A stretch of DNA of 61,625 nt, counting the filler, from Sanchytrium tribonematis (lineage: Eukaryota), in NCBI GenBank assembly GCA_018985235.1. It is 10 parts of 10 records of this genome, joined end to end, with 100 filler letters (N's around TTAATTAATTAA, not from the genome) between each part and the next. Parts side by side here need not be neighbours in the genome. Positions count along the whole stretch, not along the records: positions 1 to 23,955 come from JADGIG010000074.1; positions 24,056 to 28,180 come from JADGIG010000758.1; positions 28,281 to 32,401 come from JADGIG010000759.1; positions 32,502 to 36,603 come from JADGIG010000760.1; positions 36,704 to 40,802 come from JADGIG010000761.1; positions 40,903 to 45,001 come from JADGIG010000762.1; positions 45,102 to 49,171 come from JADGIG010000763.1; positions 49,272 to 53,328 come from JADGIG010000764.1; 2 more parts are not named here. One strand, 5' to 3'. The notes below the pieces were generated by a model, which worked only from the letters and a program-made list of their open reading frames with translations, did not search any database and was not told the DNA's origin. Position 1 is the stretch's first letter. Each line of letters starts with the position of its first letter. A program made the translations under genes and the position numbers. Below are positions 8,336 to 54,897 of this stretch, piece after piece.

Positions 8336-9546
8336 ATGTCATTTGAAAATGATCATCTCAGACAAATCAAATCACAAGTGAAATCCCAATTATACAAAGG
8401 ACTAAATCCAATTAATGTATCTAAACAAGATGCTCAATTACTGGGCATTATTGCTAATTATTTAGATAAATTAAATTTAACAGCCACACTCAACACCCTG
8501 CAATCAGAATGCAATTATATCCCATCTAATGACGATTTAGTGAATATATATGACTATTACAAGACATCAGATACATTAAATTATGATTTAAATCATTTAC
8601 AGAATCATTATGCCAATTTATTGAGAGATATTGAGAATAAACATTCTATAGATTTAGCTAAACAAGAAGAACAATATAAACAACTATATTATCAATTACA
8701 ACAGGATTATGATAGCTATAAAAGATTAATTCAACATAAATTAGAAAATATCAATAAATCACCCTCACATTTCGTATTAGAGAGTATTCAACGGGATTTG
8801 ATGGAATTAAAGAGTGCTGTACTTGATTTACAAGTTAAAAAAGATCCATATTTGTATGAATTAGAGGGGATTAAACAATTATTAAAAAATGATGTGAGGC
8901 CATTTCCAAAACAACCAGCTGCATTTACTCATGAACATGAGAGTGTGTATCAATATAAACAACAATTAGATCAAATGTCACTTAGAAATAAGGAATTACA
9001 ACGAGAATTGGCTGATTTACGATATTTGAATGCAAATACGCCAAATGCCAAAGAATCCCGTGCCAATTCCATTAAATCAGATTTATCTCAAAATGAATTA
9101 AAATTATTAAGAAAAAGATCACCAGAAAAGAATAATAATACGGGATATGACTTGAGTCCAGCAGAATTGAAATTATTGAGTAAAGAATCCAATGAAGTTG
9201 AAATTGAAAGAGATGGGGTTGGTAGTGATTTGAGTAATTCTGAATTGAGATTATTGCGACAATCCAAGACGGATAAACCAGAAAAATATGAGAAATCACC
9301 CAATAAAAATGAAAAGAATGTTTCATTCTCTACAAATGACCAACAAATGGATGAATTGGATAAAATGGATAAAAATGGGAAACATGTGGTCATTGCTGCT
9401 GTAGATGAGCAAATTGATGATTTAAAAACTGATTTAGACCCACCCATGGAAGATTTAAAAGTAATTGATTTGCCAGTGCAAGATGATGTAAATTTATATT
9501 CATTTAGATGGTTTCTAGCAAGAAAACAGAAGATATATCATGGTAA
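8336..9546 (+). CDS. LisH/coiled-coil centriolar protein, OFD1/FOP-like (join 8336..9487,9508..9546)
   Basis: N-terminal IKSQVKSQL and LisH-like LLGIIANYLDKLNLTATLNTLQSE; coiled coils; spliced C-terminus ..EDISW* resembles the OFD1 acidic-W end. Confidence 0.6.
9488..9507 (+). other. 20-nt spliceosomal intron GTAAATTTATATTCATTTAG
   Basis: Matches the consensus of the 19-nt introns (A at -6); removal ends the ORF before it overlaps the convergent gene. Confidence 0.65.
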
Positions 9547-9573
9547 TCCAATAAATAAAAATACAATTTATTT

Positions 9574-11037
9574 CTATAAAGAATTCACGTGATTTACAAT
9601 GCAATTTCTAGACGATGAAGAAATCACAATAGATTCTCTAGAATTGGCAGTCCCAAAAGTGAATTTGACATATATGCCTAATAACTCACAATCACACATC
9701 TGGCTGGATGGAATGGTCAAGAAATGTGCATCATTATTATAAAATTCAATTTTATCGCCATAAACATACAATAAATTGATTAACAAGGATTCACACCTAA
9801 TATTATATCTCATAGACCCATAATATGGTAGTTTAGTGATTGCTTTGGCAATATCGTCCACAAAATCAACCTCTTTAACAGCAATTTGTGAAAAGATTTG
9901 TTTGATTTGTGGTTCACTTGTTGGAGTTACTTTTATTAAAGATGACTTGAAGAGTGTTTTATAAAGACTGAGAATGTGATCCGGTAAAGAATGTGCTTTT
10001 GTAGGGACCCACAAACACATTTGAATGAAATAAAGGGTGTCTTTAATATTTGAATTGGTTAATTCAATATTCCAATTACTGCGACGTATAATCCATTTGG
10101 GACTGATGTATTTTAATTGATCTGCGTGGCTCACATGGTCAAAAAAATACTCATCTTCTTTCAATGTTTGGGATTCTCCAGTTTGATCTCGTAAAATAAT
10201 GGCATAATTTTCATTATCAATATCCAACGATTTCATGACGTGCTGCCAGATGTATCTACCAGTGTCATAATTATTAAGATTCAATTTAAAGGGCGTATTA
10301 TTGAAATCAAAAGTGACTGTAAATTCATTTTTAATTTCTTCATATTTAGTGATTTCTATGGAAGATGGACGGTGTAATCTACGTGGTAGATTTCTGACTA
10401 CTCTTAATTTTAATTCATTGATAATCAAGTCGAATTGGCTAGGAGATGCACTATTTAATGTTTGAATGACCATTAATCGAATATCCTCTGTTGTTTTTAA
10501 ACAAGGAAATAGTAATACGAATAAAGCCCAATTGATTTGTAATGCACCATTTCTGTTGTTCATCAATTGTTTAAGCAACTGACAGCATAATTCATTGTTT
10601 AATTCAATGTTATCTTTAACCATTTCCAACATGAGACCACAAATATTAGGTTTTTCGAATGGCTTGACAGTTTTTTCGTATTTTAACATTAATGTGAATA
10701 ATTGAAATGCTTTTTCATCATCATTTGTTTGCTTTAAAAGTGGTTTATCAATTGGATGAGATTGCCAGTTTGGATTGGATCTTTTATGACCATTTAATTT
10801 GATATAGTCATGAAAAGGCGTTTTTAAATCAAATGGGTCATATCGTACTTGTTTATTGTCAATTGGAGGCGGTAAACCCATGTAAATATTCAAAATGGGA
10901 GATAAATCACATGTTATAGAATCATCTGTTTCTATAGAAATATTTGGAGAAGTTGCTGAACGCGGAATTCGAGGAATATTGGGCATTTTGAATGTTTGTA
11001 GTGCTTCTTTACTTTTTGATTTGAACAGAGACGACAT
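9574..11037 (-). CDS. MyTH4-FERM domain protein
   Basis: WQSHPIDKPLL..ELCCQLLKQL..WALF..RLHRPSSIEI (MyTH4), then FERM-like lobes (LPYYGS). Confidence 0.8.
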   Translation of the reverse strand: MSSLFKSKSKEALQTFKMPNIPRIPRSATSPNISIETDDSITCDLSPILNIYMGLPPPIDNKQVRYDPFDLKTPFHDYIKLNGHKRSNPNWQSHPIDKPLLKQTNDDEKAFQLFTLMLKYEKTVKPFEKPNICGLMLEMVKDNIELNNELCCQLLKQLMNNRNGALQINWALFVLLFPCLKTTEDIRLMVIQTLNSASPSQFDLIINELKLRVVRNLPRRLHRPSSIEITKYEEIKNEFTVTFDFNNTPFKLNLNNYDTGRYIWQHVMKSLDIDNENYAIILRDQTGESQTLKEDEYFFDHVSHADQLKYISPKWIIRRSNWNIELTNSNIKDTLYFIQMCLWVPTKAHSLPDHILSLYKTLFKSSLIKVTPTSEPQIKQIFSQIAVKEVDFVDDIAKAITKLPYYGSMRYNIRCESLLINLLYVYGDKIEFYNNDAHFLTIPSSQMCDCELLGIYVKFTFGTANSRESIVISSSSRNCIVNHVNSL

Positions 11038-11305
11038 GAGTAGCTTGCAAGCCACATTTTTTGAATTTTGTTTTCAAAACGCGAAATGGATAACCGAGTG
11101 TATTGACTTAGGGAATTTTGAGATTCAATGTCAATTTTCCATGATTTGGGTTGATGTTTGAAATATGCTTTCTTTCAATTCGTCAATACACGTGTTTTAC
11201 TGTCTTTGGCTTATCTGGAATAACTTACCACGTCAATTGGTGTCAAATAAATTGATATTGATCAAGTGACTCTCCTTTATTGCGCCATCAAATGGTTAAA
11301 AGAGC

Positions 11306-12775: not shown

Positions 12776-12776
12776 A

Positions 12777-13730: not shown

Positions 13731-13771
13731 CAAGGGGATTCTCCAAAATTTGCAAATATTTTTCAAAACAA

Positions 13772-14443: not shown

Positions 14444-14448
14444 ATTTA

Positions 14449-16389: not shown

Positions 16390-16625
16390 CGTTGGATTCT
16401 TTTTGGAAATAGAGGGTAAGACAAAACAACCCCGTGTGTATTTTAGTACCGTCTAAAACAGCGTGATTTTATATTGTCGTACATGTATGACATGTACTTT
16501 AATGTACTCGACAAATTTAATAGTGATTGGATCCCCAATGATCACATGTTGACACCAATGATCACAAAATAGAGTACAGAATCACAGAAGGACTATTTAA
16601 ATGGACTCATCCCTCCATTACATAA

Positions 16626-17657
16626 ATGCAATTGTATCTATTTGTATTATTAGCTATAGTATCTGCTAGTGACCCTCAACCATGGTTTAAACAAACCGTC
16701 GCTTTTAGCAACAAAGAGTTGACTGCATTGAATTCTGTACAAGAGGAAGTCAGAAATGAATTGATCGAAAATTTGAAAAAACATAGCACTCCACGCACTG
16801 AGGCTGAAAAAAAAGGACTAGCAAAAGCGATTGAAAATATCAAAGGACTAGACTCTGTAGCATTACTGAATGAAGCCAAGATTGTATTGGAAGACACAGA
16901 ACTCTTGGCCCACCTTCAAAAGACAACAGATGCAAATCAAATTTATTTAACTAATCAATTAAAATATCAAAACGCTTTCAAGGCATACGAGGATAAGCTA
17001 CGTACAATTGCAGAAATTGCAGAAACTTCAGATGCTGATTTGATGGAATTAGAAAAAAAGGCAGGAGAGAAAAATCTTGCCAAATTTACTGAGGCAAATA
17101 TTGCATTTGAAACAGAAGTTAATACTATCTATAAAGATATTGCCAAAACAGCTGACGACGAAACAATTAAATTGCTTAAGAGTCATCCAGGTGTTGCAGA
17201 TTTGGTAGGATTAGAAGCAGATGAGGCGCAAAAATTGAAAAATTTGAAGACGCTAGAGGCTCGTTTCAAAGCCAATCAGCTTACACAAGAACAAGCAGCT
17301 CAAGTCAAGTCATTTTTGGAAGCTGACCTCAGTCAAAGAAAATCGTATGCGCTTCTTTTTGAGGAAGTCGGAAATGGATTTAAAAAAGGAACTCAAGCAG
17401 CTGAAAACGTACTGACAAAAGGCACTCAGGGAAAATTTGCATCTGCAATTGAAAGGAACAAGTTTGGTGCATTGGCAGCAGCTGCTATTCTGGGTGCTGG
17501 AATTGGTGCTGTTGCAATGTCTGGAAAGAGAGATACTCCATATGGCATATTGTCAAATGGACAACCAGCTGGTGCAGATAAATCTAGAGTAGAGCAACAA
17601 TCAGGTCAATCAGGACAACAACCATCTACCAATCAATCTGTACCACCAGCTCAATAA
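16626..17657 (+). CDS. Secreted single-TM family 'GAD-RV' member 3
   Basis: MQLYLFVLLAIVSA..PWF; TM LAAAAILGAGIGAVAM; tail YGILSNGQPAGADKSRV. Confidence 0.8.
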   Translation: MQLYLFVLLAIVSASDPQPWFKQTVAFSNKELTALNSVQEEVRNELIENLKKHSTPRTEAEKKGLAKAIENIKGLDSVALLNEAKIVLEDTELLAHLQKTTDANQIYLTNQLKYQNAFKAYEDKLRTIAEIAETSDADLMELEKKAGEKNLAKFTEANIAFETEVNTIYKDIAKTADDETIKLLKSHPGVADLVGLEADEAQKLKNLKTLEARFKANQLTQEQAAQVKSFLEADLSQRKSYALLFEEVGNGFKKGTQAAENVLTKGTQGKFASAIERNKFGALAAAAILGAGIGAVAMSGKRDTPYGILSNGQPAGADKSRVEQQSGQSGQQPSTNQSVPPAQ

Positions 17658-17754
17658 ATATTTAGTAAAATCAATAAAATACAAATATTTTTTTTCACGT
17701 GTTTTTATCCAATCAGTGATTGTCAATGTGAAATGAATTCTCCCTCAAACACAA

Positions 17755-18721
17755 ATGTCTTCAACTGCTCAAGCTGCTCCTGCAAAGAATAATGACCAAA
17801 CAGTCAAATTCTTTAAAGATTTAGCTATTGGTGGCACTGCTGGTGGTATCTCAAAGACCATAGTAGCCCCAATTGAGAGAGTGAAATTATTATTACAAGT
17901 GCAACACGCATCCACTCAAATTGCAAAAGATCAACAATACAAAGGTATTTTTGATGCTTTTAAAAGAATCCCTGCAGAACAAGGTATGATTTCATTCTGG
18001 AGAGGTAATTTGGCCAATGTGATTCGATATTTCCCAACTCAAGCATTAAATTTCGCATTTAAAGACAAATACAAGCAAATATTCGTCAGACATAAGCCAT
18101 CTGAAGATTTCTGGAAGTTCTTTGCTGGTAATTTGGCATCTGGTGGTGCTGCAGGTGCTACATCTCTCTTATTCGTGTATCCATTGGATTTTGCACGTAC
18201 CCGTTTGGGTGCTGATGTAGGTAAGGGTGCTACTCGTCAATATAATGGATTAGTGGACTGTATCTCCAAAACAGCCAAAAAAGATGGTTTCTTTGGTCTT
18301 TACAGAGGATTTGGTGTTTCTGTCATTGGAATCATCGTCTATAGAGCTGCCTTCTTTGGTGGATATGACACAGCTAAGCACGTCTTTTTAAAAGATCCTA
18401 AAAATGCTCCATTTTGGCAAAATTGGATTATTGCGCAAACTGTGACAACAATGAGTGGATTTGTTTCTTATCCATTTGACACTGTCAGAAGAAGAATGAT
18501 GATGCAAGCAGGTAGAGCTGATGTGCTTTACAAGTCCACCTGGGATTGTTGGATGAAGATTTTAAGCCAAGAAGGTCCAAGTGCATTTTTCAAGGGGTAT
18601 TTCGTATTTATTTAGTGCTTTGAGTAATGTATTGCGTGGTAGTGGTGCTGCATTAGTGTTGGTCATTTATGATGAAATTCAAAAGTTAATGGGATTGGAA
18701 GGAGGCGCAGGAGGAGAATAA
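17755..18721 (+). CDS. AAC: ADP/ATP carrier (join 17755..18596,18616..18721)
   Basis: RRRMMM signature, [12 protein letters not shown]; spliced end [25 protein letters not shown]. Confidence 0.97.
18597..18615 (+). other. 19-nt spliceosomal intron GTATTTCGTATTTATTTAG
   Basis: Removal restores the conserved KGA.SNVLRG of AAC helix 6. Confidence 0.93.
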
Positions 18722-18784
18722 ATGAATTTTATTATTTGATTTACTATTACACATCCATATGTGGTAGAACCAACATGATACTCT

Positions 18785-18812
18785 GCTACTAGTGGACATG
18801 CAACAGCAACAG
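18785..18812 (+). repeat. 28-nt dispersed repeat, inverted copy at 23928-23955
   Basis: GCTACTAGTGGACATGCAACAGCAACAG, exact on the opposite strand at the contig end. Confidence 0.85.
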
Positions 18813-18869
18813 CAACAGAAAACACCAAATTAAAACAACATTAAAAATAAATTTATTTCATTTTTCACT

Positions 18870-19710
18870 CTACTGGCTCATTAATTGATAAAACTGACTT
18901 CTTTTTGCATCAGAGACTGTCAAATCATATAGAATATCACTTCTTTGCTTCGAATCTACTTGCAATTTACTAGATAATCTCATTAATCCAATTTGGATCC
19001 ATTTGCAATTTGGCTCTAATTCATTTAATTCTTGCAATTGGGAATATTGGAGGGATAAAGCATCATAAATGGATATATTCTGAATATCTGAGATGCTGAT
19101 CAAGTATAAATAATAAAACCATGCAGATTGATCACGTGGATCAGAGTAAAAACAGGTAGTTATTAATGGAATATCCTGTAATATTAATGGCATTATGTCA
19201 TGAATTGGTTTTAATGCATTTATGATTTTATATCTCCAATGCCACGCAGAATAATTGCTGAAATTTGATTTTATTTGATTTGCTGTAAATTCAAATTCTT
19301 GCAATAAAATGGGAATATTGGAATATAAATCAGGATATTGTTTGATTAATAGTCTTTTACGATAATCCCATACATGAAAATTACGACAATCCTTCTTTAA
19401 ATAGAAATCTATCAATTTAAATTCATTTTGCCAAATATTTTGCAAATCCATTTCATTAATGCACCATAATCTATGATTCCATGTCCAATAACTCTTTGGT
19501 TGAGTGGAAATGACTGTAATTAACCATTTTAATTCCTCATTATAGTCAAATTGGGTGGATTGGATCATCATTCTTCTTTCATTCCATAAAGTATAATTTG
19601 ATTTGTAGTAATAATTGATTATTTTTGAGTGATTTATCTTTTTCATAGTCAATTAATAGTTGATTGTATTCGGCAATGGTCGTAGAGCCATCAAATTGAA
19701 AATGTTGCAT
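18870..19710 (-). CDS. BET4: Rab geranylgeranyltransferase alpha subunit (frameshift near 19600)
   Basis: PFTA repeats YTLWNERR, KSYWTWNHR, RNFHVWDYR, SNYSAWH; DPRDQSAWFY; N-terminal helix in a different frame. Confidence 0.85.
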
Positions 19711-19857
19711 TTCTTTCACGGAGAGAAGCGACGATTTTTGCAAATTGGAACAAAGAAACAAGGGCCATATTTCTTTGATTTTCGACTTATTGATTGCTCC
19801 ATAATTCCAAGTCTCTCAAGAATTTGTTTATTAAGGTATTTCAACTTTTTAATCGGA

Positions 19858-20329: not shown

Positions 20330-21046
20330 ATGTCAAAAGGGAAGCAGCAAAAAATGTCATTAAATGACTTTCTATCTAATGAGAAATTCGGATCCGTCAG
20401 TAATTGGGCAGATGAAACAGACCAATTCTTACCAACTGTCCCATTAAGTATGCGAGTTCCTGATCATTTGACACTTCATTTCGTGCCAATTGAACATCTG
20501 GAGCCAAATGATATCCAAAATGCATTTCAAGGTGTTAAAAATGTCCGATTTATCAAATCTTTTGCTTATGTTGAATTTCAATCTGAAAATGATTGCTCAA
20601 AAGCATTAGAAAGAGATGGTCAAATGCTTCATAATCATATTTTGAAGATTTCTCCTGCAAAAGAAGGCTACAAAGAAGAAGAGAACAAAAATTGGGGTAG
20701 ATCTCAATGGCAATCTCCTAGTCCGATCCAAAGACCTATCCAAAATCAAAATTGGGACAGATCTACTTGGAATCAAAAACCAATTACGCCAGAGAGACAA
20801 GACAGACCACCTATGGATAGATCTGGTGATCGATTCGGTGATCGACAAATGGATAGATCAACAGACAGACCATCAGATAGACCCATGGATAGATCCCAAT
20901 GGGGGCAACGTCCAGCTGCTCCATTTCGATCTGAAAGACCTGAGCGACCAGAAAGACAAAGATCTTTTGATAGAAATGATTCTTTCCAACCACGACCAGA
21001 AAGACCATCTTCAAAAGCAGATTCAGTGTCATCATGGAGAAAATAA
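20330..21046 (+). CDS. RRM protein, eIF4B (Tif3/Sce3)-like
   Basis: KMSLNDFL..NWADE N-terminus; RNP1 FAYVEF; DR-rich repeats; ends ADSVSSWRK. Confidence 0.75.
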   Translation: MSKGKQQKMSLNDFLSNEKFGSVSNWADETDQFLPTVPLSMRVPDHLTLHFVPIEHLEPNDIQNAFQGVKNVRFIKSFAYVEFQSENDCSKALERDGQMLHNHILKISPAKEGYKEEENKNWGRSQWQSPSPIQRPIQNQNWDRSTWNQKPITPERQDRPPMDRSGDRFGDRQMDRSTDRPSDRPMDRSQWGQRPAAPFRSERPERPERQRSFDRNDSFQPRPERPSSKADSVSSWRK

Positions 21047-21061
21047 ATCAAGCATTCAATT

Positions 21062-21670
21062 TTATTCATTTTTAACTGGTTTTATCGTTGCTTTTGGAAA
21101 AAGTACTTTTTTACGTTGTTTGAGCATGTACGAGTACAAAACATACAATCCAGGGACATATAATGCAATGATACTGTAGATTGGAATCTTGGTTTCTTCA
21201 TTTTCAAGCGTGACGAGATATAAAGATACAATTTCCATTGAAACACCAATTGGATATAACACGATGAATCCCGAGTATCTCAACCATTTTAATGAATAGG
21301 GCACTCCAAAATCTTTTAGACAATAAAATGAATATCTAATGATCTCAGCAATGCTCCACGCAGATGTCAAAACAGCAAAACTCCAATGCATTCTAATCAA
21401 CTCGCTACTATAGTAATAATGAGGACCCCACACGATTAATAATCGAGATGCAACTTGCATGAATGTATTGAAGAAACTGGTGCCCAATAATAGTGCATGA
21501 AATGGCTCTAAAATGGCAATAGTTTGCACAATACGCAAATAATCAATGGTGTTAAACGCAAGAGAGAAATAAAACTTGGTTGCTAAATGGCTTGCGACCA
21601 TAGATAGCATATATGACCATAATACCAAATTCACAAAGTTGTAAGTGAAAAAGTAAACGGATGAAAGCAT
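21062..21670 (-). CDS. PHS1: Very-long-chain 3-hydroxyacyl-CoA dehydratase
   Basis: QVASR, AWSIAEIIRYSFY, WLRYSGFIVLYPIG..E, YMLKQRKKVL. Confidence 0.92.
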   Translation of the reverse strand: MLSSVYFFTYNFVNLVLWSYMLSMVASHLATKFYFSLAFNTIDYLRIVQTIAILEPFHALLLGTSFFNTFMQVASRLLIVWGPHYYYSSELIRMHWSFAVLTSAWSIAEIIRYSFYCLKDFGVPYSLKWLRYSGFIVLYPIGVSMEIVSLYLVTLENEETKIPIYSIIALYVPGLYVLYSYMLKQRKKVLFPKATIKPVKNE

Positions 21671-21732
21671 TTGTCAGAAAATATATTTTACATTTTTGAT
21701 GGCGTATTTTCAATCAAGCCACTTTTATTGAC

Positions 21733-23836
21733 ATGTCAACCAAGGGTAATGTAGCGGATAAAGCGAAGTTGTTCGCTGAAAAGTCTAAATTAGACACCAT
21801 TTATTGTGAGAGATGTAATAAGAATGTATTAAAAAGTGCCCCAGATCATTTAGTGTTTGAAAACCATGTTTATCACGTCAATGAATTCAAATGTTGTATA
21901 TGTAAGACCCAATTGAAGTTATCTAATGCTGTTAGATATAAAAATGACTTATTTTGTCAAACACACAACCCTTCTCGTGATCATAACCGACTCAGTCACG
22001 ATACTGAGAAGAATCACCGTCAAAGATCTGGTAGTGTCACCAATGATCAAGAATATCAAGCAATACGTGTTAAAAAGGACCATAAACAGTTACCGTTGCC
22101 CACAACTTGGGTAACCAACATGAAATCTATTTCAAATTTATCTGCAGTTCCAAATGAAGTCAAAATAAGCACGAATTTATCCAATTTATCAAGAGATATG
22201 GAGATTAAAAAGAGTATGAATGGTCTATCATTATCACCAACAGATGATGATGTGCATCGTAGCAACATGGTCTTTATGGGTTCTAGACAAATTAATCTGG
22301 ATATCAAGATAGAATATGAGGAAATCAAAAAGTCATATGAGAAATTAGAAGAGAATACGCGTAAAAGAGGATACACTTTGGAAGATAAACGATCCAGAAG
22401 TCAAAGTTTAAACAAAGAAGATGATTATTCACGGAGAAGAGTCCAAACAGTTGATATTCCATCAAGTCAATTAAGGAATCAAAGCACTGATTTTAAAGTA
22501 GATCAGCCTAAAGATTACTTTATAGAACTGCCAGATTTCTGGTATGAGTTGGATGCTACATATTCAAAACCGAAAACCAACAAATTACCGATTTTAGTGA
22601 TGGGAGATGAAGAAATTAACCGGAGAGAGTTTGGTAGAGAGAATTTAAGACATTTTACTAAATTGGGTATATCTCCATATATGAATTACGATATGGAATG
22701 GGTGGATGTGCTTTGTTTGTATTATAGACATTTTATTAAACAATTAGACCACACAAATTATGTGGCATTAATTGACGAGGGACCTGTCTTAATCACTGTA
22801 TATATGGAAAAGGGAGAATCTAGTAGCGACGAAGAGAGTTTACAAGATTTAGCTGGATTTATGGATGCCTTGAAAGATAATAAATATAAAATACTGATGC
22901 GATGGAAAGGTGGATTGGATTGGAGATTAGTCTTTTATGAAAGCGAATTCAGAAACAAAACAGGGATTAAATCAGCTGTAAATCGACGAAAAATCATCAG
23001 TTATTTACATCCCTCTTTAATTCCAACAAAATTAATAAAAATCACAGATCCGAATATCAAAGATGAGATATGCAAATTAGATGAGTTGAGAGTGACGACA
23101 GAGTATAAATTTGGTGTCATTGTCGTCAAGAAAGACCAATTTAAAGAAGAAGAGATATTCGCAAATAAAGATTCTGATGAGCATTATGATGAATTATTGG
23201 GGATTGTGGGCCATAAAATAGAATTATTAGGATTTCAGGGACATTGTGGTGGACTAGATAATAAAAATGGTAGAACCGGCATTCATTCTGTGCACACTAA
23301 ATTTAGTGATTTTGAAATCATGTACCACGTTTCTACGATGCTGCCATTTGATCCAGTAGATCCTCAACAAATACAACGGAAGCGACATATTGGTAATGAT
23401 ATTGTGTGTCTTGTATATTTAGAAGAAGGCGCCAAATTCAACCCATCCATGATTGCATCAAAATTTCTCCATGTTTACATTTGCGTGCAAAAAGTTGCAA
23501 ATGGCTGGAAAGTCGTCATTGCAGCCAATAAACACATACCGTATTTCGGACCAGCACTCCCAAATCCAAATATATTTACAGATAAAGAAACATTAAGAGG
23601 ATTTTTACTCACAAAATGTATTTCTCATTTATTTAGTAATCAATGGCGAAAATGCTGCATATCATTCGATTGTATTTAGAAATTTAGAAACGCGTACTAG
23701 AGATATGATATTAAAAGATATTGGGGAGAGATATGCAGAGGAAGAAGCATCTAAAAAATCAAATTCATCTAAAAGATTACGAGTATTTAACCATTTAAAG
23801 CGTAGACCTTCCAAGGAGGAGCCAGCTAAAAAGTAA
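21733..23836 (+). CDS. LIM-domain Rap GTPase-activating protein (join 21733..23617,23637..23836)
   Basis: N-terminal LIM; KFGV, GGLD, EIMYHVSTMLP, RKRHIGNDIV; spliced FLLTKLINGENAA..RTR. Confidence 0.92.
23618..23636 (+). other. 19-nt spliceosomal intron GTATTTCTCATTTATTTAG
   Basis: Removal restores the RapGAP motif TKLINGENA. Confidence 0.93.
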
Positions 23837-29293: not shown

Positions 29294-29301
29294 ATAGTAC
29301 A

Positions 29302-33717: not shown

Positions 33718-35647
33718 TTATTCTCGCAACCATGAATCTGGTAATTCAGTTTGCTGTATACCCGCTAGACCAAAAACTGAATTGAATAATCCGCCAATTC
33801 CTTCGCCAGCTAGTAAACCAGATGCTAGTGAAAACATTAATAATTCGTGACTTTTGGGAGATCTTTTTTGCCAAACATATGAAAATATGGTACCAAATAA
33901 CATGCAAGTCGCATAAGATGCACTTGTATTGATTAAAGCAACACCGATGCTAGACCAATTTGGCATCCATCCAACGTACTTTTTGGGTATCACTTTCTTC
34001 TCTATAAATGCACAAACAACAATAAGTACAACTAGAATGTAACATGTTGTGACTGAAGACTTCGGTATTTTTGACAGTCCATCATCACTGGTAAGAGCCT
34101 CAGTGATGGCTCTCCAAGCAATAGCTGGTGTGTTGGGTATGTTTAATCTCGTACACTCATCAATTCCATCTGGTTCCAAAATACAAGGGTACTGAAGGAC
34201 CATTAAATAAAAGAAAGCCACAGTAGTTACGACAGAGAAGACACTGCCGAAAAACTGTCCCAAAAATTGTGATTTGGGACTGGCTCCAACTAAATGCCCT
34301 ACTCTCAAGTCTCCAATAAGGTCTGAAGCATGCGATGCACTTCCTAAATAAATTTAAATTACCTGCTGTAACCATAGCTGCAGTGACTGACGTAGATTGT
34401 TGAATCAACTTGGATTCTTGTGGAATGACGCTGAAAGCAAACTGAGAGACTTTTGCAACTGTTCCAACAGGATTGATGTCAGTAACGGCAGATGCCTGTA
34501 CCCCGATAAATGCCATTATGAACCCTAAAAATACAGCCAATAATGATTCACCATATCCAACATAAAAATAATATTTTAAAACAATTGCAGAATAAATAGT
34601 TGCAACGATACCACCACCCATCCACCACAATGTAGGTACTTGGTGCTCAGGAGGCGCAGGGTCTTCAATTACCTTTTTACTATCTGGGTCTTTGCGGTTG
34701 GCATCCATGACTGACCTTATAATTGCTGGAACTTCGAAGGCTAAATCAGCAAATGAACTGACTATCATCGCTGTGATTCCGGGCCAAAGCATCCATAATT
34801 GCACTGATGGCTTATTCAAGTTAAGACCACCAACTTTAACAACAATACCTTCATCATATAAGTATCTTCCTAAAATAGTCCAGAAAAATACTTGCCCAAA
34901 GAAAAACCAGAAACTTGTGGAAGGTCCCATCATCATTCCAGCACCAAAAAAGGCAAAGGAAAACGTAAGAGCAAATCCAGTCAAATCTAACCAGTCAAAT
35001 GCTATACTTAACCCAGTGAATGAATCACCCCAAGTTTCTACAAATCGAGATATATATAGATTTACATACAGATCCCTCATATATGGTACAAAATATGCTA
35101 ATACAATCCAAACGAATGCAAATATTGAACTCCACAACAACCATTTAAATTGTTTTGCACCTGTTGCTGTATCTCCATCTAAATGAAAGTTTTTAATACA
35201 AGAAGCTGCAGCTGTAGGAGTCGGGAACGGTAGGTGCGCTTGTTTAATTACGAACCACTTTCTTAAAGGCATTGTAAAAAATATACCAAAGAAAGCCGTT
35301 GTTGTCGCCCAAAGAGTAATTCTCCAGAAGTCGTCCTTAATTTTTGTGTGATCAAAGATTCCCATTTGATACATAGCTGGTAAACCATTTACAAATCCCG
35401 CAGATGTCAATCCACCAGCAGCAGTTGCAGCCGAACTGAGCGTTGCATGCTCGAAAATGTTAAATTTTGGCCCACCTGTGACTCTAGCTATCCAAACCAT
35501 GACAGGATATCCGAAAATAGCAGCGAAAATGGTCGCGCCGAATGACCAGCCAACCTTGAATCCAAAGTACATATTGCTGGCACAAATGATGGATCCCAAA
35601 AGACACCCCACGATAGCTGCTCTCAATGAAAAATGTTGCTCTTGCAT
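33718..35647 (-). CDS. OPT/YSL oligopeptide transporter (intron 34344..34362)
   Basis: NMYFGFKVGW, LPFPTPTAAA, TDINP; spliced ASDLIGDLRVGHLVGASPKSQF; ASGLLAGEG. Confidence 0.92.
34344..34362 (-). other. 19-nt spliceosomal intron GTAATTTAAATTTATTTAG
   Basis: Joins the two OPT ORFs in frame at the conserved D..GD...GH motif. Confidence 0.92.
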
Positions 35648-35900: not shown

Positions 35901-36603
35901 TTATTTGGATGAGTTATCATCTGCTGCAATTTTTGGATCCTCTCTCACATCATGAAGAAAAAACGCAAAGGATGACTTTCTCCGACCTTCAGGGTTGTCT
36001 TTTTTGTCGACTTTTCGGAGCCATTTTTTGGAGGTTTCTTTCCAGCTAGAATATCTTGCTCTGGTGTTATTTAGTACTTTTTCGGCTTCTGCTGGATAGG
36101 CCTGACAAATTTGATAATATACATCATATGTTATAGTGTATACATCACAATTGGTGTATGCTTTGTAGTCAAATTCGCAAGCTTGATTTAAAATCAGCAT
36201 GAACTCTCCTAAATAAAATCTTGATACCAAAATACGAATTCTCTACAAGAGATGACAACGAATGCTGCTGGTGCATAATATCAACTCTTCCTTGTATTAT
36301 AAAATATAATTCTTTTGTTAATTCGCCCTGGTGTACAATTATGGTGTCTTTGGTAAAATATTGAATCGTCAGGGAAAGAGAAAGCATTCTCCGAAAACTG
36401 GCTGAGCAATTCGCAAACATATCAGTTTGAATTATGGTCTGGTAGTTCATACTGACCGCCACATCAGCTCTAAACGATGTCGGTAAGTCGGCAAATACTT
36501 TTGAAACATCAATACCCTTACTTCGTTCCCATGAATAAAAATACCATGCAATAACTCTATCCTGAAGATCCTTAGGCAAATGATGATCATTCATGTAACT
36601 TTG
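35901..36603 (-). CDS. Cyclic-nucleotide-gated channel C-linker plus CNBD, 5'-truncated (intron 36209..36227)
   Basis: YM..HHLP..LQDRV..WY..W; LPTSFRADV; ELYFIIQGRV; spliced SYFGE. Confidence 0.85.
36209..36227 (-). other. 19-nt spliceosomal intron GTATCAAGATTTTATTTAG
   Basis: Removal restores the CNBD FGE motif. Confidence 0.9.
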
Positions 36604-36703: not shown

Positions 36704-39700
36704 AACATAAAATCCAATCGTTCATTCGTCAGTTGAAGCATGATGAGGATTACAAAGCTGATTATCGTCACTGTCTTTATGGACTAGACGCTGACCTAAT
36801 AATGCTGGGTTTACTAAGTCATGAACCCAACTTTTCTCTTCTAAGAGAAGAGGTAACCTTTTCTTTTAAAAAGAAAAAGCAAACAAACATTTATCAACAG
36901 AAGTTTTTTTTGCTTCATTTATGTTTACTGCGAGAGTATCTAACCTTGGAATTTGATATAATTAAGCACAAGTGTCATGATCTTAATATTCCTTACCATC
37001 CTGATAAAATAGTTGACGATTATGTATTTTTGTGTTTGTTCATTGGAAATGATTTTTTACCGCATTTGCCGAATCTTCACATACACACTGGAGGATTGGA
37101 CTTTCTAATGGAGCTTTATAAAAATAATTTCAAAGGATTTCTTAATGAGTGCGGTAATCTGCAACTTCCATTGATCAGGGATTTATTCGAATTACTGAAG
37201 GAGTTCGAAATGGACAAATTTGTTGATCTACAAGATGATGAACAATATCTACACGGTAAAATGTCAGGAATGAAAATTGAAGCGACCAAAGTTCTTTACA
37301 AATCTCAACTACATTATTTGGAAATGGTTAAATCATTTTTATTTGAGTCCGAAGAGGATTCTCTCTATTTTCCACGATTGAATAAAAGGGATGAAGTCTT
37401 CCTGACGGCTTTGTGCTCTCAACTAAACCTTCCATTCATCAAAAATGTTTTGCACATGGACAATGATCTTCGAGACGATGAGGAGAACATCGATGCTCAG
37501 ACTCGAGTTATTTTACGATACGAAACTATGCCAGTTTTTGATGACAATGAATTTGATCGATTTGCAGAACAAGAAAAAAGTATGATTTCTAAGTTCGATC
37601 AATATAAAATTGATTATTACAGGGAAAAACTAGACAACGAATTTCATGAAAATGTAAATATGGAAATGGTGTCGAGTTACATGCAAGGTCTTCAATGGGT
37701 GATAAGATACTACTATGAAGGAGTCCCAAGTTGGTCTTGGTACTATCCGTATCATTACGCACCATTAATTCACGATATAATCAAATGTAGCATCGAATCG
37801 CATAAATTTGAGTCAGGAAGTCCTTTTACTCCTTTCGAACAACTGCTTTCTGTTATGCCATTGTACAATCAGTATTTATTGCCAAAGTGTTTGGGTGACC
37901 TTATGGAGCACCCTCAATTAAGCGAGTTTTATCCGTTGACTTTTAAAATAGATCTTAATGGTAAGAAAAACGATTGGGAGGCAATTGTGAAGATCCCTTT
38001 TCTTGATCAAAACGTTTTGCATGATTTGGTTAATTCTAAGATTCACCTATTAACACCAGAGGAATCAAAGCGAAATTCAATTGGAACTCATCACATATTC
38101 ACATTTTCTAATTCTACAAAATTTATTAAATCACCGAGTGAAGTATTTCCAGATATCAATGCAACTTGTGAACAAAAGGTATTTGATATGCCTTTTAGAA
38201 GTGAAACAAGTTTTAACAAATTTGCTGAACCAAAGTCATTACCTGGTTTTCCAACTCTTATGAATTTAGAATTTGAACATATTATTCAGCCTTATGAAGT
38301 CAATGTTTTTGGCTCTGCAAGCAGAAACGACTCCTTAGTGTTGATGATATCAGAAAATGAAGAGCCAATTGAGCAACTGAATCCACTTTTGGATCAAATC
38401 GCTCTCATTAATTGGCCAAATGTCAATATGGCGAAAATAGTCGGATTTAGCAATGGGAGCAAAACCGTTCTATCGGGAAGCACTTCAGACATGACTGAGG
38501 AGCAAATACAAATTTATGAAATGAAACTGACTCATTTGGAAGAATACTATAATAACTATGCTGTTGATATAGGGTTTACCACTGTATTGGCGCATGTCCT
38601 TCCGTTTGCAGGCATGAAGAGATTATTGAATGGTAGTATTGTTAGAGATTTCTCAGATCAAGTGGAATATTATCCATATCAGATGCTGATCACCAAGTTT
38701 GATATGGACCAACGATTCATTCCAATGAAAGCGCCCCCATTAGATGAATTATATCCACCTCAAACAAAGGCGATTTTTTTAATGGGAAATCCATATGGTC
38801 AAGTTTGTGAGGTACTTTCTACGACAACTGATAAAGTGAATGTTTGTATAACAATGAACAAGAATGAAGATTCATTTCCTGTTTTGCAGATCAAAGAGAT
38901 CAAATATTTTTCAAGCAAAGAAATTTGTAACAAACTAAAATGGCATCCATTAGCATTAAGTAAGATAACTAGCTATTATAGAGTCAAACAGAACGGAAAG
39001 AATATAAACATTGGTCTTAATATGAAATATTCTGGGAAAGGTTTAAAAGTGGCTAATTATACTCGATTTACTCAATTTTGGGAGTATAGTCAGTCATGTT
39101 ATGATGCATTAAGAGAATACCAGTTTAAATACCCTGTATTAATTAAGTATCTTAATGACAATTGTAAAGAGAACGATTTAGACGTATCTCAGTTAAATTT
39201 AGACGGACTTCAAGAATTTTTGAAGCAATATCATTTCGACAGTGTACCGACCCATTTTGAGCAGCTAACTGCGGTAATTAACTCTTATTTAGGACCAAAT
39301 CAAGTATGTCGAGACTACAATCACAAAGCACATGTCGACACTTGGCCAATTGATTTCATTAAACAGACCAAACATTCCAGCTATGTTCATTTTGCATCCT
39401 GAACAAGCAGAGTCCCGATTGACTCACCAAAAATTTAGACTATTAGATAGAGTAATGATTATTAAACACCCACTTTTAGGGCACAAAGCCACAGTAGTTG
39501 GTGTAAATGATATGATTGATGTTGTTTTGGATAAGGAGTATGCTAATGCTTCAGATTTAAATGGTAATTGCTCGAAATATAAGGGAATATCATTTACTAA
39601 TTTTGAAATTATCAACTTGACAATGCAGCAACCATTTAAAAAACATGTGAACGCGAAATGGAAACAGGACGATATTGCCCACGTTAATGAGTTTAAAAAA

Positions 39701-39931
39701 GATTTGAAGAAGCATCAGTATAAAGCGATACACTCAAATAAGGTTAAAGAAGGTATAACCTACAGTAAGGTCATTGAAAAACCAAAATCAATGTCAAATG
39801 AAGATAAGAATTTGGAAATCAAGAAATTATTAAATATTAAAGATGTGGCGCCAGCTCAAAAATCTACCAACCCAGGCACAGAATCAAAAGAAGACGCTTT
39901 GAAAAAAATCCTAGGCATCACAAAAGAGTAA
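36704..39931 (+). CDS. XRN1: 5'-3' exoribonuclease 1, 5'-truncated (intron 39274..39292)
   Basis: HCLYGLDADLIMLGL, GNDFLPHLP, WYYPYHYAP, C-terminal KOW/SH3-like region. Confidence 0.95.
39274..39292 (+). other. 19-nt spliceosomal intron GTAATTAACTCTTATTTAG
   Basis: Joins the 889-aa and 199-aa ORFs in frame. Confidence 0.9.
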
Positions 39932-47983: not shown

Positions 47984-48003
47984 TGAATAAAATGATTTAT
48001 TAA

Positions 48004-48447: not shown

Positions 48448-48501
48448 GGTTACAAGGAGATACCCCTATTTGAAAAGATTGTCAATTATTTTTGAAACGT
48501 G

Positions 48502-49158: not shown

Positions 49159-49477
49159 TATGATTTATCAGNNNNNNNNNNNNNNNNNNNNNNNNNNNNN
49201 NNNNNNNNNNNNNNNTTAATTAATTAANNNNNNNNNNNNNNNNNNNNNNNNNNNNNNNNNNNNNNNNNNNNAACTCATCCCCTCTGGGTGATGATGTTAA
49301 CAGGATATCCGGGACCTGATTCAAAACAATGGACATGACAACATTCAAGTGTTTCAGAGGGTCACATGTGAAAATATCAGATCATCATGGATGTGTTTTT
49401 GGACATTAATGATGTCTTTTTGGACATGTCTGTTAAATATCTTAATAAATTGTCTGTCCAAAATTTCCCCTTCAGAC

Positions 49478-50075
49478 ATGCTAATTGATTACTCATCAGA
49501 CGACAGTATATCTACAATAGATGATTTTATTGATACAATAACATTAAAAGACATCCCATTACACCATATAGTACCATGAATTACACTTAAAGAAAGAGAA
49601 CAAGTGCCAAAAACAGATTGGTGGGAAAGTTGCTATCCCAAATTGAAACTAAGAGCATTTAAAAAGATTTATAGGATCAAGAGGGCTACTATTGAGAATT
49701 AGATTTATGATTTGTATATTTACTCTAATTATAAATCCAAATATCAATTAAATAAGGCAGTTTGTGTATGTGTTGATTATCTTACAACACATGCAAGACA
49801 ATATGATTTACAAATACTTTATGGATGTAGTGTTGGTTATATTAACAAATTTATCAATGATGTTTGTGAGACCATTGCAAATGTATTTTTAAATAAAATT
49901 GTAAAGTGGCCAAATATCCAAGAAAGATGCCGAATTGAAAATGAAATAAGAATGAAATATAAAGTACCAATTAAATGAGATTTCAAATACTAAAAGAACG
50001 TGTCAATGCTTCTACTGCTAAGAAATCGGATTTATTTATTCGCTGTTGTGTTGCATTACATAATTATTCCATTGA
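49478..50075 (+). pseudogene. Harbinger transposase remnant
   Basis: DWWE..FKKIYRIKRAT, DYL..YGCS..I..IVKWP, RFQILK..CCVALHNY; in-frame TGA and TAG; DDE core missing. Confidence 0.8.
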
Positions 50076-50772
50076 AAATGGAATAGATTATTTTACCATT
50101 GTATTTCATTACCAATTCCATGATATGCTCTACATTTTTATTTGTTTGATAGCTTGTTTCTTCAACCAATTTCTGTTTTTTAGTTTGCAAATAATTTAAA
50201 TCCTCTGGCATATCAATTGCTCTTTTTTGATTTGCGGTCAACTCTTTTAATACTGTTTGTTTGTTGGGATAGGCTGGTTTTCTGGTTGTTTTGGGAATTG
50301 GGAATGACATATTTGGCTCCATCCCATCATGATCATATTTCTTTTGATCACCTACAAAATCAACAGATCCCATGACCAAACTGCGATTGTCCATTTCATC
50401 AACATACGTCAATCCAGTAATTTCTGTAAAATTGATTGCTTTTCCACCTGATTCGGGTGGTCCAACTAGTCTTTTATACTCAGAAACCCAGGAAAAACAG
50501 CAACGCTGACAGTATTTGCTAAATGCAATACCACCACTTTCGTATTCCACATTTTGGGCTGTTTCTTCAAACCATTTGGCCAATTTGATTGAAGGATCAT
50601 TTTTGGCTTTCAAATAGCCTTTAAAGTATGTTAAAGCATTGAAAAATAAATTAAATTTGGCTATTTGGTTGATTTCTATCTTTGTTTTCTCTCCAGGAAT
50701 CTTTTTTGCACTTTTGTCTTTGTTTGTCCGTTGCAAGGAGGGATTACCGAATTCAAAATGAAAGACATTCAA
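50056..50772 (-). CDS. Putative Harbinger accessory (Myb/SANT-position) ORF
   Basis: Convergent to the transposase inside the TIRs; domain not directly recognised. Confidence 0.45.
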   Translation of the reverse strand: MNVFHFEFGNPSLQRTNKDKSAKKIPGEKTKIEINQIAKFNLFFNALTYFKGYLKAKNDPSIKLAKWFEETAQNVEYESGGIAFSKYCQRCCFSWVSEYKRLVGPPESGGKAINFTEITGLTYVDEMDNRSLVMGSVDFVGDQKKYDHDGMEPNMSFPIPKTTRKPAYPNKQTVLKELTANQKRAIDMPEDLNYLQTKKQKLVEETSYQTNKNVEHIMELVMKYNGKIIYSIFNGIIM

Positions 50773-52762: not shown

Positions 52763-52985
52763 CAAGTAATAGAATAATGCACACATAATTGTAACCTTTT
52801 ACTTTTCACTGGAACCAGTAATTGAAATTTGGCTTGCTCCAGTGGATTCTAATGTTCGTTTGGTTTCCATATTCATCCAAATTGTAGTTTCATCTGCAAA
52901 TACATTGGAATATAGTGACAATTCGCCTTTAACTTTTAAAATATGCTTTGCTGCTGATTCAATGAAATACTGACCATCTTTTTAA
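52763..52985 (-). pseudogene. Pogo-like (Tc1/mariner DDE_1) transposase fragment
   Basis: Manual translation FADETTIWMNMETKRTLESTGASQISITGSSEK*KVTIMCA. Confidence 0.6.
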
Positions 52986-53609
52986 CTGATTGTGTCGAGA
53001 TAATTTCTTTTCGATGTTTGATCATACCAAATTCTTGACGCTTAAAATGTTTAATCATTAAATTCTTCAGAATTTTGTTTTTCAATCCATTTATTTAAAT
53101 ATCTTTTAGTAACAATTAATTGATTTGCATAACATTAAATTATAATTAATGTGACTCAAATGTAAATGAATTCCAAGATGGTTTGAGATGCGGAATAAAT
53201 GTGTAGAACTATATGGGCTGTAATAACTGAGTCTGATGGCTCATATAACTTATATTGGTTCATATTTGCAAAATATGAATGTTCTTTGTTTATTGGTGAC
53301 TCAACACAAAGCTGCTTCGAGGTATTCCNNNNNNNNNNNNNNNNNNNNNNNNNNNNNNNNNNNNNNNNNNNNTTAATTAATTAANNNNNNNNNNNNNNNN
53401 NNNNNNNNNNNNNNNNNNNNNNNNNNNNCTACCTTACGATAAATATGGGAATTGTAGTAGCCTATTATCACATTATCTTCAACATCATGCAAAATATCGA
53501 TTTCTGAAGGAAATTTTTTATCTCGAGGAATGTTCTAAGCCACTAATATTTTGATTGGACGATGTCGATTAATAAACAGCAAACCCTTTTTCGAACCAAA
53601 AAACTTGTG

Positions 53610-54897
53610 ATGGGAAATTATATATCCATAAATGACAGGGATAGATTATTTCACACCAGACTAAGCAGACGTCAAAGTGGTAGATTGTCTGTGAAAACAA
53701 CGTTTCTGGGTTCGCACAACAAGATAGCAGCAACTCCGCCCCTTTCATCTACCCCAATTCTTGGAGAAGAATTATCACCAACTCCAATTGATTCATCCAA
53801 TAGCGATATCAAGGTTAAAAAAATAAGTCCTGTACTTTACAATTATGACACTGCACCAACTGTTCCAACAACACCAACATTAATGATGAAGCAAAAAGTA
53901 GAGAAGAGTCAAGTACCTTCGGATATGGAATTATTGAGAAATGCTTTGAAAAATGCACAGCACAAAAAGCGCTCTAGAAAGTGCAATTCAACTTCAACTA
54001 TATTTTTACAATATACGCTGTATAAAGGATCTATACCGAACTCCATTCGCCAGATTTCAAACAGAATTGTAGAAATTTTAGCTCAAAATGAGATTCTGGA
54101 AGTCTTAAAATCAAATCAATTACTAGATGAAGGATTATACCCATTAGATGCTAATATCCGCTACTCTAGTCCACACGTTCTTCCAAAGCCTGATGAGGTG
54201 GAGAGATTTCTTCTTCCATTGTTTTTAAGTTCACAACTTTCTGCTGAAGCAGCAATTATCTTTTACATTTATTTGGAAAGAACAATCAGACACAGCGAAG
54301 TGACTTTTTCTTGTGCGAATTGGGCGAGATGGCTCCTAGGAGCCGCCATTATGACGTCAAAAGTTTGGGAAGATCAAGCCGTATGGAATGTCGACTTTTG
54401 TCAGCTATTTCCAAATTTGGACGTTGGGGACCTGTAACTTTTACTGACTTAGCTCAAAGCTAGAGGTTTTTATGTTTTCAAGTCTACATTACGACATTAC
54501 GGTAAAACCTTCGTTATTCGCTCAAACGTTTTTTGAGCTATCCCAAATTGACTCAGAGGAACAAGCAAAAAGGTCATTCGGAGCGATTCCAATATCGCAT
54601 CGAGATGCTAGCAGGCGTGAGATTCTGTCTTCTACATATTGCGACTATTTAAAAGATATGTTCCCAAAGACAGAAGTCAATTGGGACCAGCTCGTGACTA
54701 TGTACGAAAATGATTTGAGAGAACGAGCTGCAAGAAATATTGTTGCTGGATCATTAAGTCAGCCAAAATTAGAACAGGAAGAAGAAGATGTGGTAGATTC
54801 GCAATCTGTTGTTCTGCAAAGAAAATGGATAAAGTTAATTAAGGCAAAAAGTGATAGTCTTTTTGAGCCAAGAATAGTTCCTGCTGTTATAATGTAA
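53610..54897 (+). CDS. CCNY: Cyclin Y-like (intron 54434..54452)
   Basis: MGNYIS myristoylation-like start; NSTSTI; QLSAE..IYLER..NWAR..SKVWEDQAVWNVDFC; spliced DLSKLE..VKPSLFAQTFFEL. Confidence 0.88.
54434..54452 (+). other. 19-nt spliceosomal intron GTAACTTTTACTGACTTAG
   Basis: Canonical CTGAC branch site with A at -6; restores the cyclin box. Confidence 0.92.

What the first reader, a model, noticed from the sequence alone, without database searches (positions are those of the whole stretch)
9488..54452. Ultra-short fixed-length (19-20 nt) spliceosomal introns with an invariant A at -6
Seen: eight introns on five contigs: 18597-18615, 23618-23636, 26090-26108, 34344-34362(-), 36209-36227(-), 39274-39292, 54434-54452 (all 19 nt) and 9488-9507 (20 nt). 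All begin GTA, end YTTAG, have A at -6 (one in a canonical CTGAC) and are non-3n. Removal restores conserved motifs ([28 protein letters not shown], cyclin box) or joins split ORFs. I found no longer intron. Known: typical fungal introns are several times longer; comparable sizes occur in heterotrich ciliates and chlorarachniophyte nucleomorphs. Inference: a streamlined spliceosome measuring a lariat loop of about 14 nt with fused branch and acceptor sites, evolved independently in a fungal lineage.
Basis: partly seen in the sequence, partly recalled or inferred. Interest (0 to 1): 0.92.

Follow-up and report, generated by a model that had tools for sequence, protein, structure and literature searches.

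The report
Nineteen-base introns in sanchytrid fungi
Seven genes in this DNA from a sanchytrid (an algae-parasitising fungus) are interrupted by 19-base inserts whose removal restores the reading frame (confirmed against related proteins for six); these are likely spliceosomal introns, and they would be shorter than any fungal intron I found described, though no RNA has yet shown them being cut out.

Summary
Seven of the eight introns hold, all 19 nt. Six are backed by protein homology, one (LRR gene) by ORF joining and 19/19 identity to another. The 20-nt case is unverified. The window groups with Amoeboradix gromovi (Sanchytriomycota).

Relatives give independent support. Three cyclin-Y ORFs stop at the same codon. 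Three ADP/ATP carriers stop in a 19-, 19- or 22-nt read-through with the same inferred -8 T and -6 A, at a site the window lacks. An OPT relative lacks the window's intron but has its own exact 19-nt frameshift (17 of 17 residues).

The 3' end matches the U2 branch register with A at -6, as in Encephalitozoon and Stentor. The fused branch/acceptor is therefore known. The 19-nt size, below E. cuniculi's 22-76 nt, appears new for fungi (five sanchytrid searches found no description).

A stripped spliceosome is not supported: A. gromovi's annotation lists U2AF35/65, SF1, U1-70K, SF3B1 and Cwc25. All seven introns lie in 3' gene halves. No RNA run or whole genome was available, so splicing and the genome-wide size are inferred. 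The scan earlier noted short introns in Rozella (26-29 nt) and Neolecta, not in this lineage.

The parts
18597..18615 (+). 19-nt phase-2 intron in the ADP/ATP carrier gene (exons 17755-18596, 18616-18721)
   Evidence: best score of 4830 trial cuts against an HMM built from the homologues under 360 aa
23618..23636 (+). 19-nt phase-1 intron in the LIM + Rap-GAP gene (exons 21733-23617, 23637-23836)
   Evidence: exon 1 aligns to Rap1GAP up to residue 294; the spliced frame matches its next residues
26090..26108 (+). 19-nt phase-1 intron in an LRR protein gene (5' end cut by the contig; exon 2 26109-26368)
   Evidence: ORF join adds 86 codons with a hydrophobic 19-mer; identical to 23618-23636; no homology test
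34344..34362 (-). 19-nt phase-1 intron in the OPT oligopeptide transporter gene (exons 35647-34363, 34343-33718)
   Evidence: Pfam OPT 3-437 then 443-622; trial cuts; relative P0171 and homologue P0172 read through this site uninterrupted
36209..36227 (-). 19-nt phase-1 intron in a cyclic-nucleotide-gated channel gene (5' end cut by the contig)
   Evidence: cNMP domain split over two frames
39274..39292 (+). 19-nt phase-0 intron in XRN1 (5' end cut by the contig; exon 2 39293-39931)
   Evidence: Pfam D2/D3 domain ends at residue 856, the donor; the SH3-like domain lies in the other frame; ungapped alignment across the join, best GT-AG cut
54434..54452 (+). 19-nt phase-2 intron in a cyclin-Y-like gene (exons 53562-54433, 54453-54897); near-canonical branch TACTGAC
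   Evidence: best of 3330 trial cuts; three relatives stop at the same codon
9488..9507 (+). candidate 20-nt intron near the end of a LisH (OFD1-like) gene; unverified
   Evidence: fits the motif, ranked 24th of 12120 GT-AG pairs; no homology support

Best explanation
Seven genes here carry 19-base GT-AG inserts whose removal restores the reading frame, and they are likely introns cut out by the ordinary (U2-type) spliceosome, which would branch at the A six bases from the end and release a 14-base loop with a 5-base tail. Shown: sequence, size, frame restoration and shared sites in relatives. Inferred: bases +1 to +6 are read by U1/U6; bases -11 to -5 pair with U2 in the UACUAAC register (A at -10 in 5 of 7, Y at -9, T at -8, A at -6 and Y at -5 in 7 of 7). 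That leaves only two spare bases, so 19 nt is about the shortest length at which the two snRNA contacts do not overlap. The 3' AG would be chosen by its fixed distance from the branch, with no polypyrimidine tract. The introns are relics in a compact, intron-poor parasite genome (about 0.16 per kb of coding DNA here) and are still being lost or gained among sanchytrids. The spliceosome is likely adjusted rather than stripped.
For: Trial cuts and domain continuity. Column counts of the 7 introns; leave-one-out ranks, with only 1 to 62 of 12113 other GT-AG pairs scoring higher.

Relatives:
- 3 of the 47 non-self cyclin-Y hits (P0122, P0123 = A. gromovi, P0124) stop at the window's donor codon.
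- ANT relatives P0322-P0324 end in read-throughs that back-translate to 19, 19 and 22 nt, with T at -8 and A at -6 if the stop is TAG.
- P0171 needs a shift of exactly 19 nt to encode 17 of 17 downstream residues; the next best of 40 shifts gives 8 of 23.

A separate assembly of run X1 holds the inserts at 9488, 18597, 23618, 34344 and 36209 without gaps (X1 may be the window's source). A. gromovi is annotated with core splicing factors and Dbr1.
Against: No spliced transcript was seen; splicing and branch use are inferred. Only 7 introns in 61 kb, with no genome-wide distribution. XRN1 and LRR ends rest mostly on the motif. The stop codon that ends the relatives' ANT tails is not seen, so those introns could be longer. 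A loose motif shows no excess at 19 nt. The automatic ORF-join scan recovered only 4 of the 7. No intron has G at +5, so U1/U6 pairing is weak unless these RNAs have changed; no snRNA lies in the window.
Confidence: 0.85

Rival explanations
1. They are real introns but mostly left in the mRNA, as in microsporidia, and serve to damp expression or are nearly neutral.
For: E. cuniculi short introns splice at under 20% (PMC6349667) and V. culicis at a median 25% (PMC4435813); the 3' architecture matches E. cuniculi. All 7 are non-3n, so retention truncates the protein.
Against: Retention removes the conserved end of the ADP/ATP carrier and the XRN1 SH3-like domain, so some splicing is needed. The 18-21-nt nucleomorph introns splice near normal levels (PMC6009652).
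Confidence: 0.2
2. One reading: a stripped spliceosome without U2AF, SF1 or U1 measures a fixed loop.
For: Fixed size, no polypyrimidine tract, no +5 G. Prp18, Slu7, U1-C, Yju2 and Prp16 were not found in the A. gromovi table. Mikrocytids with 16-17-nt introns keep only 17-19 proteins.
Against: U2AF35, U2AF65, SF1/BBP, U1-70K, Luc7, SF3B1, Cwc25 and Isy1 are annotated in A. gromovi. Stentor and myxozoans splice tiny introns with largely complete machines.
Confidence: 0.1
3. The window samples only a tiny-intron class, and sanchytrid introns overall have a broad or ordinary length range.
For: n = 7; one relative implies 22 nt; E. cuniculi keeps a 76-nt intron beside its small ones.
Against: All 7 homology- or frame-supported introns are 19 nt. 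3 of the 4 relative introns whose size can be inferred are 19 nt. No well-scoring long intron was found in 39 ORFs.
Confidence: 0.1
4. Some introns are recent copies of one master sequence (intron transposition or reverse splicing), which would explain the fixed size.
For: Two introns in unrelated genes are identical (19/19) and a third is 17/19; the chance of one identical pair is about 0.002-0.04 under a position-independent model. Sites differ between relatives in OPT and ANT.
Against: No target-site duplication beyond 0-2 bases. Repeated identical sequences are common among tiny introns (1.55% of Stentor introns share one sequence). The cyclin-Y site is shared by four lineages, and the ANT pattern fits loss in the window's lineage.
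Confidence: 0.12
5. Not spliceosomal: IRE1/tRNA-type RNA cutting, DNA excision, ribosomal frameshifting, pseudogenes or assembly errors.
For: Fungal IRE1-cut HAC1 introns are of similar size (recalled). The window does hold broken genes.
Against: All have GT-AG ends and a U2 branch register. An IRE1-type motif lies near 2 of 7 donors and 0 of 7 acceptors, with no shared fold. A 19-nt cut beats 16-, 13- and 22-nt cuts in ANT and cyclin Y. Sites and size recur in relatives. Run X1 has the same letters at the five sites laid.
Confidence: 0.03

Closest known systems
Short introns of the microsporidian Encephalitozoon cuniculi (PMC3629993, PMC2483917, PMC6349667; passages)
   Same: Fungal-lineage parasite, intron-poor, GT-AG; its branch consensus CTAAYTT matches the last bases before AG here.
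   Different: 22-76 nt rather than 19; about 30 spliceosomal proteins and no U1 snRNA identified, whereas a sanchytrid is annotated with U1-70K, Luc7, U2AF and SF1; sanchytrids are not sister to microsporidia but to Blastocladiomycota.
15-16-nt introns of Stentor coeruleus (PMC9505925; passages and section 2.1)
   Same: GTA start, TAG end, branch A six bases from the end, AU-rich, repeated identical sequences, largely conserved spliceosome.
   Different: Loop of 10-11 nt rather than 14; no strong branch consensus in Stentor; 5' positional bias there, 3' half in 7 of 7 here; ciliate, not fungus.
18-21-nt introns of chlorarachniophyte nucleomorphs (PMC6009652; passages)
   Same: Same size class.
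   Different: Dense (3.1 per gene), no discernible branch A, in an endosymbiont nucleus; here sparse with a clear branch register in a main nucleus.
16-17-nt introns of Mikrocytos mackini (PMC10245619; passages)
   Same: Parasite, near-single size, conserved sequence.
   Different: Spliceosome cut to 17-19 proteins; no introns in transporter or metabolic genes, whereas here ANT, OPT and a channel carry them.
Fixed branch-AG spacing of Yarrowia lipolytica (PMC2483917; passages)
   Same: Two bases between branch motif and AG, no polypyrimidine tract.
   Different: Yarrowia introns are long (median 204 nt).

Membership tests
U2-type spliceosomal intron | GT...YAG ends | tested here: met
   7 of 7 GTA...TAG
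U2-type spliceosomal intron | Removal restores a conserved reading frame | tested here: met
   6 of 7 by homology, 1 by ORF join
U2-type spliceosomal intron | Branch motif able to pair with U2 (yTnAy) | tested here: met
   Y-9, T-8, A-6, Y-5 in 7 of 7; A-10 in 5 of 7; U2 partner sequence is established knowledge, the sanchytrid U2 was not seen
U2-type spliceosomal intron | Removed from RNA through a 2'-5' lariat | not testable with these tools
   no RNA holder listed
U2-type spliceosomal intron | Host encodes a major spliceosome | tested here: inconclusive
   proteins annotated in the relative A. gromovi; no snRNA in the window; no whole genome held
Fixed-length tiny-intron systems (Stentor, Mikrocytos, nucleomorphs) | Nearly all introns of the genome within a 2-4-nt range under about 22 nt | tested here: inconclusive
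   7 of 7 in the window at 19 nt, relatives 19, 19, 19, 22; genome-wide count not possible
Reduced spliceosome of microsporidia/mikrocytids | Loss of most U1, U2AF and SF1 components | tested here: not met
   U1-70K, Luc7, U2AF35, U2AF65 and SF1 annotated in A. gromovi; tested on the relative only
IRE1-type non-spliceosomal intron | CNG/CNG stem-loops at both cut sites (motif recalled) | tested here: not met
   motif near 2 of 7 donors, 0 of 7 acceptors; no common fold
Introner element | Family of near-identical introns with target-site duplication | tested here: inconclusive
   one identical pair and one 17/19 relative, no duplication over 2 bases
Sanchytriomycota (host) | Groups with Amoeboradix, near Blastocladiomycota | tested here: met
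   ANT tree clade 88/98 with A. gromovi; cyclin Y 71% to A. gromovi against at most 52% outside the group; ANT 80-81% to Blastocladiomycota

The most novel reading that the evidence does not exclude
Sanchytriomycota are a whole fungal phylum whose introns are nearly all 19 nt, the shortest in Fungi. A largely complete fungal spliceosome cuts them at the limit where the U6 and U2 contacts touch. They are skewed to the 3' half of genes, opposite to other intron-poor genomes, and are still turning over by precise loss and by copying of a preferred 19-mer.
Probability: 0.3. Interest if true: 0.8.

Novelty: new variant of a known kind. Interest (0 to 1): 0.63.

Why it matters
It would add an independent origin of sub-20-nt introns, in fungi, next to well-annotated relatives with ordinary introns (Allomyces, Blastocladiella). 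Spliceosome changes that allow a 14-nt lariat could then be mapped against yeast structures far more directly than in ciliates or rhizarians. That bears on the open question of the minimal intron.

It also has a practical effect. The sanchytrid proteomes were predicted from genome contigs with an intron-blind ORF caller (PMC8371127). Their entries are cut at these introns (P0321, P0121, P0322, P0123, and the OPT gene split into P0326 and P0329), so gene-loss and domain claims drawn from them need re-checking.

Tried and rejected
- No whole genome is held for the window.
- No RNA holder listed.
- The one metagenome scan gave 3 distant, uninterrupted ANT loci at 68-79% identity.
- The XRN1 homologue search gave one hit.
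- RapGAP exon 2 and CNG exon 2 alone found no relevant solved structure.
- Rfam found 0 families in the window.
- The atlas gave only sub-0.9 LisH/OFD1 leads for the 20-nt gene.
- Motif look-alikes rejected as introns: 39184-39202 and 58970-58989 break intact frames; 35179-35199 encodes residues conserved in P0171; alternative donors at 26068 and 36235 give the wrong frame (reasoned coordinates).
- Other frame breaks are not introns: PPTA gene, secreted-family copy at 3114-3792, gag-pol junction, DDE fragment.
- No motif-conforming 17-24-nt candidate joined an upstream ATG to a long ORF at a 5' end; UTR introns cannot be seen this way.
- Five more window proteins had single-member clusters and five were not in the collection.
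- Whether the sites are ancestral could not be tested: no eukaryotic genome collection is searchable.
Full report
Setting. The window is ten contig pieces joined by spacers, GC 0.34, gene-dense and eukaryotic. No whole genome is held. The ADP/ATP carrier's best fungal hits are Blastocladiomycota at 80-81%. The cyclin-Y-like ORF has three close relatives at 69-76%, one named Amoeboradix gromovi, against at most 52% for the other 44 hits. In a tree of 18 carrier sequences (N-terminal part, 159 columns) the window groups with A. gromovi and two unnamed relatives at 88/98 support, short of the tool's starred level. Published sanchytrid genomes are 10.5-11.2 Mb with GC 34.6-36.3% and are sister to Blastocladiomycota (PMC8371127, section read). 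I infer that the window is a sanchytrid other than A. gromovi.

Observation. All eight stretches are present as described. I tested ends by scoring every possible cut against homologues. ANT: the 19-nt GT-AG cut ties for best of 4830 (606.9 bits, with two equivalent slides; best other length 601.3). Cyclin Y: best of 3330 (172.9; next GT-AG 152.0; uncut 133.4). OPT: the top 12 of 3000 are all 19 nt; the GT-AG one scores 201.4 against a top of 202.3, next GT-AG 184.7, uncut 88.6 (HMM from at most 40 of the 150 hits). XRN1: against one 34% homologue the 19-nt cut is the best GT/GC-AG option (45.9 vs 44.3) but non-canonical 22- and 16-nt cuts reach 50.8, so only the 3n+1 shift is firm; the Pfam D2/D3 match ends at the donor residue. 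RapGAP: exon 1 aligns to human Rap1GAP up to residue 294, and the spliced frame gives the residues that Rap1GAP has next; exon 2 alone found nothing relevant. CNG channel: the cNMP domain is split over two frames, the second at E 0.066. LRR gene: only an ORF join that adds a hydrophobic segment and identity to the RapGAP intron. The 20-nt candidate fits the motif but has no homology support.

Chance. The strict motif occurs 8 times at 19 nt against 1.11 expected (0 of 200 simulations reach 8), but it was drawn from these cases and one of the 8 is not an intron; a loose motif shows no excess, 45 against 42.6. In leave-one-out scoring, 1 to 62 of 12113 other GT-AG pairs of 18-60 nt outscore a held-out intron. 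A frame-join scan (1479 candidates, 201 after a coding filter) gave 4 hits with A at -6 at 19 nt and at most 2 at any other length from 12 to 120, but it missed 3 of the 7. No well-scoring longer intron appeared. Density is 7 in 39 ORFs of 44 kb, 0.16 per kb, against 1.30 per kb in Allomyces (PMC8476143, passage).

Relatives, the out-of-sample test. Database proteins called without splicing run into introns and stop, which leaves a trace. (1) All three close cyclin-Y relatives end on the same leucine as the window's exon 1, and no other hit does: one site shared by four lineages. (2) Three carrier relatives, A. gromovi among them, stop at about residue 170 in tails that back-translate to G-T-A starts and lengths of 19, 19 and 22 nt, with T at -8 and A at -6, if the unseen stop codon is TAG. 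The window has no intron there, and its nearest relative in the tree does, which fits precise loss (inner supports 95/79 and 83/79). (3) The OPT relative P0171 (82%) reads straight through the window's intron site, confirming the spliced junction. Eighteen codons later it shifts frame by exactly 19 nt: 17 of 17 residues fit, the next best of 40 shifts 8 of 23, and the skipped part is compatible with GT...A(-6)...AG. It could be a paralogue. So the size and motif belong to the clade, and sites turn over.

Anatomy and mechanism. Invariant columns are G1 T2 A3, T-8, A-6 and the last four bases TTAG; -9 and -5 are pyrimidines in 7 of 7, -10 is A in 5 of 7, and +5 is never G. This is the UACUAAC register that pairs with U2 and bulges the -6 A (established knowledge, inferred here); the cyclin-Y intron has TACTGAC. 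With +1 to +6 for U1/U6 and +9 to +15 for U2, two bases are spare. I infer that both arms are at their floor, giving a 14-nt loop and 5-nt tail, and that the AG is set by distance from the branch. U1 and U2 particles may have to bind in turn (hypothesis). All seven introns lie at 0.55-0.90 of the coding length (three genes are cut at the 5' end, so the true values are higher), and no 5' candidate was found; intron-poor genomes and Stentor lean 5'. With n = 7 and a detection bias against 5' introns this is a lead only. Two introns are identical and a third differs at two places; strong preference for one sequence is the simpler reading, copying is not excluded.

Spliceosome. Searches in supplementary file 4 of PMC8371127 (eggNOG table; the A. 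gromovi sheet searched, the second species' sheet cut in storage; two other supplements unreadable and may bear on this) found Prp8, SF3B1, U2AF35, U2AF65, SF1/BBP, U1-70K, Luc7, Cwc25, Isy1, Prp22 and Dbr1; Prp18, Slu7, U1-C, Yju2 and Prp16 gave no hit by name or recalled KOG number. That proteome came from an ORF caller run on genome contigs, so misses are weak. The picture resembles Stentor and myxozoans (PMC9505925, passages; PMC13644364, parts 1-2 of 3) more than microsporidia or mikrocytids (PMC3629993, PMC10245619, passages).

What is known. Tiny, near-fixed introns are a known kind: Stentor 15-16 nt with the A at -6, Mikrocytos 16-17, nucleomorphs 18-21 (PMC6009652, passages), myxozoans median 22. 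In the fungal lineage the smallest range I found stated is 22-76 nt for E. cuniculi, whose branch consensus CTAAYTT matches the end here, and Yarrowia has the same 2-nt branch-AG gap (PMC2483917, passages). Searches for sanchytrid, Sanchytrium, Amoeboradix, Sanchytriomycota and the prefix sanchytri with intron or genome listed no paper on their introns. In PMC8371127 and PMC10459994 the word occurs only in a reference, and in PMC10470594 not at all; the other listed papers were seen as listings only. General searches listed no fungal case under 22 nt. The library lacks most subscription papers, and I did not see size tables for all microsporidia (PMC6349667, PMC4435813, passages). The scan's notes hold nothing on this genome or lineage but list 26-29-nt introns in Rozella and about 37 nt in Neolecta (unchecked).

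Verdict. The introns are very likely real (0.85 for the mechanism as stated). The trait is an apparently undescribed, independent origin of 19-nt introns in a fungal phylum: a new variant of a known kind, interest 0.63. RNA evidence and a genome-wide count are missing.

Noticed in passing
window 18873-19815 (-): Prenyltransferase alpha-subunit (PPTA) gene with a frameshift near 19597. Run X1 holds a divergent contig with 8 extra letters there and several SNPs, so the window copy looks like a broken allele or paralogue, not an intron.
   Followed up: partly
window 17715-18840: A contig of run X1 joins 17715 to 18840 with 22 other letters between, skipping the whole ADP/ATP carrier gene: a second haplotype or duplicated region without this gene.
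   Followed up: no
window 1893-3002 (-), 3114-3792 (-), 16626-17654 (+): Family of lineage-specific proteins with a shared signal-peptide-like start and a C-terminal hydrophobic segment, no Pfam hit. The middle copy has an in-frame stop at 3475-3477 and a frameshift near 3264.
   Followed up: partly
window 28361-32055 (+): LTR-retrotransposon-like gag/protease and pol ORFs overlapping in different frames; the pol ORF carries a PHD finger after the RNase H domain.
   Followed up: no
window 23618-23636, 26090-26108, 18597-18615: Introns of unrelated genes are 19/19 and 17/19 identical.
   Followed up: partly
all seven introns: All lie in the 3' half of their coding sequence (0.55-0.90), opposite to the usual 5' bias of intron-poor genomes.
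   Followed up: partly
P0321, P0121, P0325, P0326, P0329, P0322, P0123: Public protein entries for this clade are cut or split at these introns because they were called without splicing.
   Followed up: yes
window 20803-23589: Run X1 contigs differ from the window at about 20 places in and before the RapGAP gene, suggesting a second allele or strain.
   Followed up: no
window 49301-50196 (+): Fragmented DDE (Harbinger-type) transposase remnant with several stops and frame breaks.
   Followed up: no
window 8336-9589 (+) and 9577-11073 (-): The LisH/OFD1-like ORF, read unspliced, overlaps the end of the convergent MyTH4 gene; splicing the 20-nt candidate would end it at 9546 and remove the overlap. 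Weak support for that intron.
   Followed up: partly
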